648 nucleotides of DNA from Escherichia coli (GTDB taxonomy: Bacteria > Pseudomonadota > Gammaproteobacteria > Enterobacterales > Enterobacteriaceae): assembly GCF_003334315.1 (NCBI RefSeq), contig NZ_QOWR01000130.1; one strand, 5' to 3'. Each line of letters opens with the position of its first letter. Position 1 is the stretch's first letter. Shown piece after piece: positions 1-648 of the stretch. A program made the position numbers and the translations under genes. Under the pieces are notes generated by a model. The model did not search any database and was not told where the DNA came from. It was given only the letters and a program-made list of their open reading frames with translations.

Positions 1-438
1 AGGCCGCAGTCGGTAACCTCGCGCATACAGCCGGGCAGTGACGTCATCGTCTGCGCGGAAATGGACGAACAGTGGGGCTATGTCGGGGCTAAATCGCGCC
101 AGCGCTGGCTGTTTTACGCGTATGACAGTCTCCGGAAGACGGTTGTTGCGCACGTATTCGGTGAACGCACTATGGCGACGCTGGGGCGTCTTATGAGCCT
201 GCTGTCACCCTTTGACGTGGTGATATGGATGACGGATGGCTGGCCGCTGTATGAATCCCGCCTGAAGGGAAAGCTGCACGTAATCAGCAAGCGATATACG
301 CAGCGAATTGAGCGGCATAACCTGAATCTGAGGCAGCACCTGGCACGGCTGGGACGGAAGTCGCTGTCGTTCTCAAAATCGGTGGAGCTGCATGACAAAG
401 TCATCGGGCATTATCTGAACATAAAACACTATCAATAA
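1..438 (+). CDS. insB: IS1 transposase InsB reading frame (C-terminal part of the InsAB' frameshift-fusion transposase); 5'-partial at window edge
   Basis: Frame 1 is open from position 1 ([145 protein letters not shown]) with a TAA stop at 436..438. The ATG at 61 reported by the ORF track is an internal methionine. From established knowledge, InsB is expressed as InsAB' via a -1 frameshift at a site just upstream of this window, not from that ATG. Confidence 0.92.
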
Positions 439-453
439 GTTGGAGTCATTACC
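431..453. repeat. IS1 terminal inverted repeat (right end, IRR), ~23 bp
   Basis: The IS1 terminus GGTAATGACTCCAACTTATTGAT appears as its reverse complement at the element boundary. The exact inner limit of the IR is approximate. The insB stop codon lies inside it. Confidence 0.8.
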
Positions 454-648
454 CCAAACATCATATAATAATTGATATAAATTATACAAACCCAAAGGAT
501 CCATCCTTATTATCGGATTCAGTGGGTAATTATACAGGTTCCATCCCCCCTCCAGCCCAATGGGGTCTTGTGTAATATACCGCCCCTGCAACGGATCGTA
601 GTACCGGTGACGGTTATAGTACAGCCCTGATTCCTCATCATGCTGCTG
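454..648 (-). pseudogene. Rhs-family (YD-repeat / RHS repeat-associated core domain) protein, 3' end of core plus first 11 codons of the C-terminal variable region; interrupted by IS1, 5'-partial at window edge
   Basis: Minus-strand translation from 648, with no stops: [65 protein letters not shown]. This contains the hallmark Rhs core terminus ([10 protein letters not shown]...GRYI(T/S)QDPIGL...NLYxYxxNP....DPxGL), with [10 protein letters not shown] encoded at 487..516. The frame runs directly into IS1 sequence at 453. GC-rich core-like codon usage at 541..648 gives way to very AT-rich sequence at 454..~500, as expected at a core/toxin boundary. Confidence 0.85.

What the first reader, a model, noticed from the sequence alone, without database searches (positions are those of the whole stretch)
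454..462. Candidate IS1 target-site duplication at the insertion junction
IS1 transposition generates 8-9 bp direct duplications (established knowledge). The bases immediately flanking the IS1 end (ccaaacatc, 454..462) would be repeated at the other IS1 boundary if this is a simple insertion. Its presence or absence distinguishes insertion from IS1-mediated deletion or recombination.
Basis: inference. Interest (0 to 1): 0.3.

Follow-up and report, generated by a model that had tools for sequence, protein, structure and literature searches.

The report
Target bases beside an IS1 end
The nine bases are ordinary host DNA next to the right end of a common jumping gene (IS1) that has cut off the toxin end of an E. 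coli Rhs gene; whether they are repeated at the other end cannot be seen here, though about three in four comparable IS1 copies show such a repeat.

Summary
IS1 ends at base 453 (…GTTGGAGTCATTACC), and 454-462 (CCAAACATC) are the first nine bases of target DNA. Uninterrupted copies of the site in complete E. coli genomes read …GAATCATCATG|CCAAACATC|ATATAAT… and match the window from exactly base 454.

The target is the AT-rich start (28% GC) of the toxin "tip" of the Rhs gene at the rhsE locus, on the minus strand, 11 codons after the DPLGL core-end motif. The 9-mer encodes D-V-W.

The duplication itself cannot be checked. The left IS1 end lies about 315 bases before the window starts. Neither this junction nor the predicted left junction is in any collection I could search.

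As a substitute I measured a base rate. Of 16 independent full-length IS1 copies next to Rhs genes in complete E. coli genomes, 10 have a perfect 9-bp duplication, 2 have an 8-bp one and 4 have none. My estimates are therefore about 0.6 for exactly this 9-mer repeated, 0.1 for an 8-bp repeat and 0.25-0.3 for deletion or rearrangement.

One side observation: strain AMSCJX03 has the opposite IS1 end joined to the very same base, with a 2,185-bp deletion on its other side. That points to a locally preferred target.

This is textbook IS1 biology and of low interest.

The parts
1..453 (+). 3' 453 bases of a 768-bp IS1 element (IS1A/IS1B type). The window starts inside the element.
   Evidence: It has 3 mismatches to the last 453 bases of the complete IS1 of AMSCJX03. 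Matching E. coli records annotate it as an IS1A/IS1B family transposase.
61..438 (+). C-terminal part of the IS1 transposase reading frame (insB), with its stop codon at 436-438.
   Evidence: ORF list. NCBIfam NF033558 transpos_IS1, E = 1.5e-36, 126 bits against a cut-off of 100.
431..453 (+). IS1 right terminal inverted repeat (IRR). The outermost base is 453.
   Evidence: The same terminal sequence ends all 16 full-length IS1 copies examined. The only perfect IHF-consensus match in the window (430-442) lies in it.
454..462 (.). CCAAACATC: the first nine target bases outside the IRR and the candidate target-site duplication. On the minus strand they are the codons D-V-W of the Rhs gene.
   Evidence: The empty sites carry this 9-mer once, preceded by ...catcatg. 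It occurs once in the window.
454..486 (-). First 11 codons ([11 protein letters not shown]) of the variable toxin tip of the Rhs gene. This is the AT-rich stretch (28% GC) in which IS1 landed.
   Evidence: Translation, the full-length CP53 protein and the GC profile.
487..516 (-). PxxxxDPxGL motif ([10 protein letters not shown]) marking the end of the conserved Rhs core.
   Evidence: Translation. The stretch is 100% identical to genes annotated as RHS element core protein.
487..648 (-). End of the Rhs core at the rhsE chromosomal position. The gene runs off the window.
   Evidence: VgrG lies upstream, and ydcC/pptA/yddH lie downstream. PMC3032704 places rhsE at b1455-b1461.
373..648 (-). Fusion reading frame: Rhs ...LLYDVW followed by 26 IS1-encoded residues ([26 protein letters not shown]), with the stop at 373-375. 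The toxin domain is cut off.
   Evidence: The same IS1-encoded tail is seen on other Rhs fragments in public data.

Best explanation
Shown: 454-462 is the target DNA joined to the right end of an IS1 copy. That copy transposed into the AT-rich beginning of the toxin-encoding tip of the Rhs gene at the rhsE locus, exactly between the codons ...D-V-W and H-D-D... The Rhs gene now ends in a 26-residue IS1-encoded tail and has lost its toxin domain.

Inferred: the event was a simple insertion. IS1 transposase cuts the two target strands 9 bases apart, joins the IS1 3' ends to them, and repair of the gaps copies the 9 bases. On this reading CCAAACATC also lies directly outside the left inverted repeat, 315-323 bases before the window's first base, giving ...GAATCATCATG-CCAAACATC-GGTGATGCTGCC.... 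The severed toxin tip and its downstream small genes would then still sit on the far side of IS1.

The IS1/target junction itself is near certain. The duplication is a probability taken from a base rate.
For: - IS1 identity and end.
- Empty site with one copy of the 9-mer, continuous with the toxin tip, in three independent genomes. Identity to the window begins exactly at 454.
- The target sits at the local GC minimum (28%) beside the 54-60% GC Rhs core. This fits IS1's reported preference for AT-rich DNA and its lack of a target motif (PMC5009759).
- IS1 makes 8- or 9-bp duplications (PMC5009759; PMC12428005, citing Grindley 1978).
- Base rate: of 16 independent 768-bp IS1 copies next to Rhs genes in complete E. 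coli genomes, 10 have a perfect 9-bp duplication, 2 have a perfect 8-bp one and 4 have none. The loci were chosen without regard to their left flank.
Against: - The left end is outside the window, so the duplication is not observed.
- The predicted left junction is absent from 5,426 complete E. coli genomes. Allowing duplications of 7-13 bases and either IS1 end, it is also absent from species-representative genomes and JGI metagenomes. This is weak evidence, because the right junction is absent from the same collections.
- At this very base, another strain carries an IS1 with no duplication and a 2,185-bp deletion.
- The base rate rests on only 16 copies.
Confidence: 0.6

Rival explanations
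1. The junction is real, but the IS1 copy is not a simple insertion. It could be the product of an IS1-mediated adjacent deletion, an intramolecular replicative inversion, or homologous recombination between two IS1 copies. In each case the left end is flanked by unrelated DNA. After an inversion, the second copy of the 9-mer would sit, as GATGTTTGG, next to the IRL end of another, inverted IS1 copy.
For: - 4 of 16 comparable IS1 copies lack any duplication. Examples are fdrA|IS1|rhsD in SW070919 and ydcD'|IS1|rhsD' in C3728.
- AMSCJX03 shows exactly this kind of outcome at the same base: its other IS1 end lies in ydcC and 2,185 bp are missing.
- The predicted duplication-bearing left junction was found nowhere.
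Against: - Most comparable copies (12 of 16) are simple insertions.
- Not finding the left junction says little, because the right junction is missing from the same collections too.
Confidence: 0.27
2. It is a simple insertion, but with an 8-bp duplication. Only CCAAACAT (454-461) would be repeated, so the reader's coordinates are one base too long.
For: 2 of the 12 duplications measured are 8 bp. The literature gives 8 or 9 bp for IS1 (PMC5009759, PMC12428005).
Against: 10 of the 12 are 9 bp.
Confidence: 0.1
3. It is an assembly artefact: a contig wrongly joined through a collapsed IS1 repeat, so this IS1 and this flank are not adjacent in the real genome.
For: IS1 is present in many copies per genome (median 11 places per genome, up to 66). 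This exact junction is found in no other public record searched.
Against: - The join falls precisely at the last base of the IS1 inverted repeat and at a clean break in an otherwise continuous gene, as a real transposition junction does.
- A misjoin inside the repeat would still require a real IS1-end/flank junction somewhere in that genome.
Confidence: 0.03

Closest known systems
Simple IS1 insertions with 9-bp target-site duplication (Grindley 1978, as cited in PMC12428005). Examples here: the IS1 copies in EC09 (CACAATAAA) and ATCC 8739 (CGGGGCCGT).
   Same: Same element (over 99% identical), the same terminal repeat joined to target DNA, an AT-rich target with no motif, and the same kind of locus (downstream end of an Rhs gene).
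   Different: In those cases both ends are visible and the duplication is observed. Here only the right end is in the window.
IS1-mediated adjacent deletion. Example here: AMSCJX03 at the same rhsE locus.
   Same: An IS1 end is joined to exactly the same base (CCAAACATC...), and the Rhs toxin tip is lost from the gene.
   Different: The orientation is opposite (IRL rather than IRR at the junction). In AMSCJX03 there is demonstrably no duplication and 2,185 bp are missing. Whether the window's copy also carries a deletion is unknown.
Rhs genes with displaced or orphan C-terminal tips and IS-type elements (H-repeat/ISAs1) downstream, as summarised in PMC3032704.
   Same: The break lies just after the PxxxxDPxGL core end, where Rhs genes normally change tips. 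If the insertion is simple, the severed tip becomes an orphan fragment downstream.
   Different: Here the break was made by IS1 transposition, not by recombination that brings in a new tip. No new toxin is attached, only a 26-residue IS1-encoded tail.

Membership tests
IS1 insertion sequence | Terminal inverted repeat of about 23 bp ending GGTAATGACTCC.../...GGAGTCATTACC | tested here: met
   431-453 is identical to the IRR of the full-length IS1 copies. The left repeat is outside the window.
IS1 insertion sequence | Encodes the IS1 transposase (InsA/InsB, InsAB' by frameshift) | tested here: met
   The InsB part (61-438) matches NF033558 at 126 bits, above the cut-off of 100. insA and the frameshift site are outside the window.
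IS1 insertion sequence | Element length of 768 bp | not testable with these tools
   Only the last 453 bases are in the window, and the source contig could not be retrieved.
Target-site duplication of a simple IS1 insertion | The same 8-9 bases in direct orientation immediately outside both ends | tested here: inconclusive
   Only one copy is visible. The predicted left junction was not found in any collection, but neither was the right junction. The base rate is 12 of 16.
Target-site duplication of a simple IS1 insertion | An uninterrupted site exists that carries the sequence once, with both flanks continuous | tested here: met
   CP53, EC09 and PEC240 read ...catcatg|CCAAACATC|atataat.... 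109 records are at least 99% identical to the query 440-648, of which 454-648 is the flank.
Rhs (YD-repeat) polymorphic toxin gene | Conserved core ending in PxxxxDPxGL, followed by a variable tip | tested here: met
   [10 protein letters not shown] is at 487-516 on the minus strand. The stretch is 100% identical to annotated RHS element core proteins, and VgrG lies upstream in relatives.

The most novel reading that the evidence does not exclude
The bond between ...CATCATG and CCAAACATC, 11 codons after the Rhs core end, is a true IS1 hot spot used repeatedly and in both orientations. More broadly, the abrupt GC-rich core to AT-rich tip transition of Rhs genes would draw IS1 in, so that IS1 is a recurrent agent that decapitates Rhs toxins or creates orphan tips.

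The evidence does not exclude this:
- Two independent junctions (IRR here, IRL in AMSCJX03) share one base.
- At least seven other IS1-Rhs fusion points exist in public protein fragments.
Probability: 0.2. Interest if true: 0.3.

Novelty: already known. Interest (0 to 1): 0.08.

Why it matters
It matters little beyond annotating this genome. The junction shows that this strain's Rhs toxin at the rhsE locus has been inactivated by IS1.

Knowing whether the 9-mer is duplicated would show what survives:
- If it is, the toxin tip and its presumed immunity genes survive as an orphan on the other side of IS1.
- If it is not, they were probably deleted or moved elsewhere.

The mechanism involved (8-9 bp staggered cuts and a preference for AT-rich DNA) is textbook. 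The only mildly interesting point is that the same base has been used twice by IS1 in different strains.

Tried and rejected
**1. Finding the source contig.**
- The exact 33-base junction is absent from species-representative genomes, JGI metagenomes and IMG/VR.
- The junction is also absent from 5,426 complete E. coli genomes, from PLSDB plasmids and from phages.

**2. Finding the predicted left junction.**
- It is absent from the E. coli genomes.
- Allowing 7-13 duplicated bases and either IS1 end, it is absent from representative genomes and metagenomes.

**3. Reaching the source through the Rhs-IS1 fusion protein.**
- A 91-aa query found only other fusion points.
- A reconstructed 1,295-aa fusion matched no cluster representative of the right length with the tail.
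- Exact look-ups of two reconstructed alleles found nothing. The alleles differ at 12 of 1,269 residues, so further guessing was abandoned.

**4. An IHF-binding site beside the target** (recalled from memory as a feature of an IS1 hot spot). The only consensus match is inside IS1's own end at 430-442, and at least one such match turns up in 74 of 200 shuffles. The flank has none within 1 mismatch. Rejected.

**5. The 24-nt inverted repeat 448-471/507-530** (71% complementary). It straddles the IS1 end and AT-rich flank. I judged it chance and did not pursue it.

**6. Deriving the window's junction from the AMSCJX03 junction.** Recombination inside IS1 never changes which IS1 end is joined to which flank, so IRR|CCAAACATC and IRL|CCAAACATC must come from separate strand-transfer events. 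Rejected by reasoning, not by a tool.

Full report
**What is in the window**

Bases 1-453 are the 3' part of an IS1 element.
- They differ at three positions from the last 453 bases of a complete 768-bp IS1 in E. coli AMSCJX03.
- The reading frame at 61-438 matches the curated IS1 transposase model NF033558 at 126 bits, above its cut-off of 100.
- 431-453 is the right terminal inverted repeat, ...ATCAATAAGTTGGAGTCATTACC.

From 454 onward the minus strand encodes the end of an Rhs protein...[51 protein letters not shown].
- [10 protein letters not shown] (487-516) is the PxxxxDPxGL motif that closes the conserved Rhs core.
- The 11 codons after it (454-486) are the start of the variable toxin tip.
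- The stretch 454-648 is 100% identical to genes annotated as 'RHS element core protein' in many complete E. coli genomes.
- In those genomes the gene follows a VgrG gene and is followed by two small ORFs, an ISAs1-type element (ydcC), pptA and yddH. This is the rhsE chromosomal position, b1455-b1461 (PMC3032704).

**Check of the observation**

Both are right.
- Sixteen full-length IS1 copies in other loci end with the same bases and are followed by unrelated DNA.
- Uninterrupted copies of the site in CP53, EC09 and PEC240 read ...gaatcatcatg|CCAAACATC|atataataattg..., with identity to the window starting exactly at 454.
- The base before the 9-mer is g in the empty site and c in IS1, so the boundary has no slack.
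- On the minus strand the 9-mer is the three codons D-V-W, so IS1 sits exactly between codons.
- The Rhs frame reads on into IS1 for 26 residues ([26 protein letters not shown]) and stops at 373-375.
- The 133-residue toxin domain seen in CP53 (HDDSYGTSSIDITGSGDL...) is cut off.

The 9-mer occurs once in the window. The left IS1 end would lie about 315 bases before the window begins.

**Attempts to see the other end**

I could not retrieve the source contig.
- The exact junction is absent from 5,426 complete E. coli genomes.
- It is also absent from species-representative genomes, JGI metagenomes, IMG/VR, plasmids and phages.

I then built the left junction that a simple insertion predicts: empty-site left flank + CCAAACATC + IS1 left end.
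- It is absent from the E. coli genomes.
- Allowing duplications of 7-13 bases and either IS1 end, it is also absent from the two large collections.

The fusion protein was not found either.
- A 91-aa query found only other fusion points.
- A reconstructed full-length protein matched no suitable cluster representative.
- Exact look-ups of two reconstructed alleles found nothing.

Because both junctions are missing from the same collections, these negatives say only that this insertion allele is not in the searchable data.

**Base rate as a substitute**

From the records in which an IS1 3' end lies next to Rhs sequence, I fetched 16 loci with distinct junctions. I compared the bases outside both IS1 ends (analysis).

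| Outcome | Copies |
|---|---|
| Perfect 9-bp direct duplication | 10 |
| Perfect 8-bp direct duplication | 2 |
| No duplication | 4 |

- The four without a duplication have obviously rearranged left flanks. Examples are fdrA|IS1|rhsD (SW070919), a truncated ydcD joined through IS1 to a truncated rhsD (C3728), and AMSCJX03.
- The loci were picked without reference to their left flank, so the sample should not be biased for or against duplications. It is small, though.
- This agrees with the literature: IS1 makes 8- or 9-bp duplications, has no clear target motif and prefers AT-rich DNA (PMC5009759; PMC12428005, citing Grindley 1978).
- The target here is the GC minimum of the region: 28% for 454-520, against 54-60% in the adjacent Rhs core.

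**Most likely explanation and rivals**

The shown part is that an IS1 end was joined by transposition to the first bases of the Rhs toxin tip. The inferred part is how the event resolved. My estimates from the base rate are:

| Reading | Probability |
|---|---|
| Simple insertion with CCAAACATC repeated outside the left end | about 0.6 |
| Simple insertion with only CCAAACAT repeated | about 0.1 |
| IS1-mediated deletion, inversion or IS1 x IS1 recombination, with no direct copy at the left end | about 0.27 |
| Assembly artefact | about 0.03 |

Reading about 330 bases upstream of the window in the source contig would settle it.

**Side observation**

In AMSCJX03 the left end of an IS1 (...GTTGGCAGCATCACC) is joined to exactly the same base, in the opposite orientation.
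- Its other end lies inside ydcC. There is no duplication, and 2,185 bp of the parental locus are missing.
- By reasoning, recombination within IS1 cannot change which IS1 end is attached to which flank. The two junctions must therefore come from two separate strand-transfer events at one bond.
- Public protein fragments also show IS1-encoded tails fused to Rhs at seven or more other positions around the core end.
- This suggests, but does not prove, that the AT-rich start of Rhs tips is a favoured IS1 target and that this bond is a local hot spot.
- An IHF site beside the target was looked for and not found. The only consensus match is inside IS1's own end.

**Verdict**

The decisive test cannot be run on this window or on any sequence I could reach. 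This is an ordinary IS1/target junction that inactivates an Rhs toxin gene. Novelty: already known. Interest: low.

Noticed in passing
L002 (E. coli AMSCJX03, NZ_CP058355.1) 2247-3014 and junction at 3014|3015; equivalent to window 453|454: An IS1 in the opposite orientation has its left end joined to exactly the same base as in the window (…GCAGCATCACC|CCAAACATC…). Its other end lies in ydcC with no duplication, and 2,185 bp of the parental locus are deleted. Two independent IS1 strand transfers at one bond suggest a local hot spot.
   Followed up: partly
window 373-648, minus strand: The Rhs frame reads through the junction and gains a 26-residue IS1-encoded tail ([26 protein letters not shown]). 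The toxin domain is removed exactly at a codon boundary.
   Followed up: yes
proteins P0001-P0004, P0007, P0008, P0016, P0044: Public E. coli protein fragments carry the same IS1-encoded tail fused to Rhs at seven or more other positions around the core end. IS1 insertions near Rhs core/tip boundaries are therefore recurrent.
   Followed up: partly
L001 (E. coli CP53) 2073-2171, about 830 bp left of the target site: A strongly diverged fragment of an IS1-type transposase 3' end, annotated 'IS1 family transposase, incomplete', lies between the Rhs downstream ORFs and ydcC. It has the same orientation as the window's IS1. EC09 (L003) carries the same annotated fragment.
   Followed up: no
L001 2599-3000, minus strand (the toxin tip that the window's IS1 cuts off): The 133-residue tip is rich in glycine-zipper-like runs (GGHAGLG, GHAGIGGG, VGGGVGGH, GIGAG). 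That composition would suit a membrane-acting toxin. It matches no NCBIfam family. Two small ORFs follow it and could be immunity genes.
   Followed up: partly
window 430-442: A perfect match to the IHF consensus WATCAANNNNTTR lies inside the IS1 right end. From memory, IHF is known to bind IS1 ends. At least one such match appears in 74 of 200 shuffles, so it is not significant on its own.
   Followed up: yes
L004 (E. coli STEC388, NZ_CP041425.1) 1-2953: Two IS1 copies bracket the heat-stable enterotoxin ST-II gene (stb) and transposase remnants, directly beside rhsC. The IS1 next to rhsC has no target duplication, so this may be a composite-transposon-like block joined to an Rhs gene.
   Followed up: no
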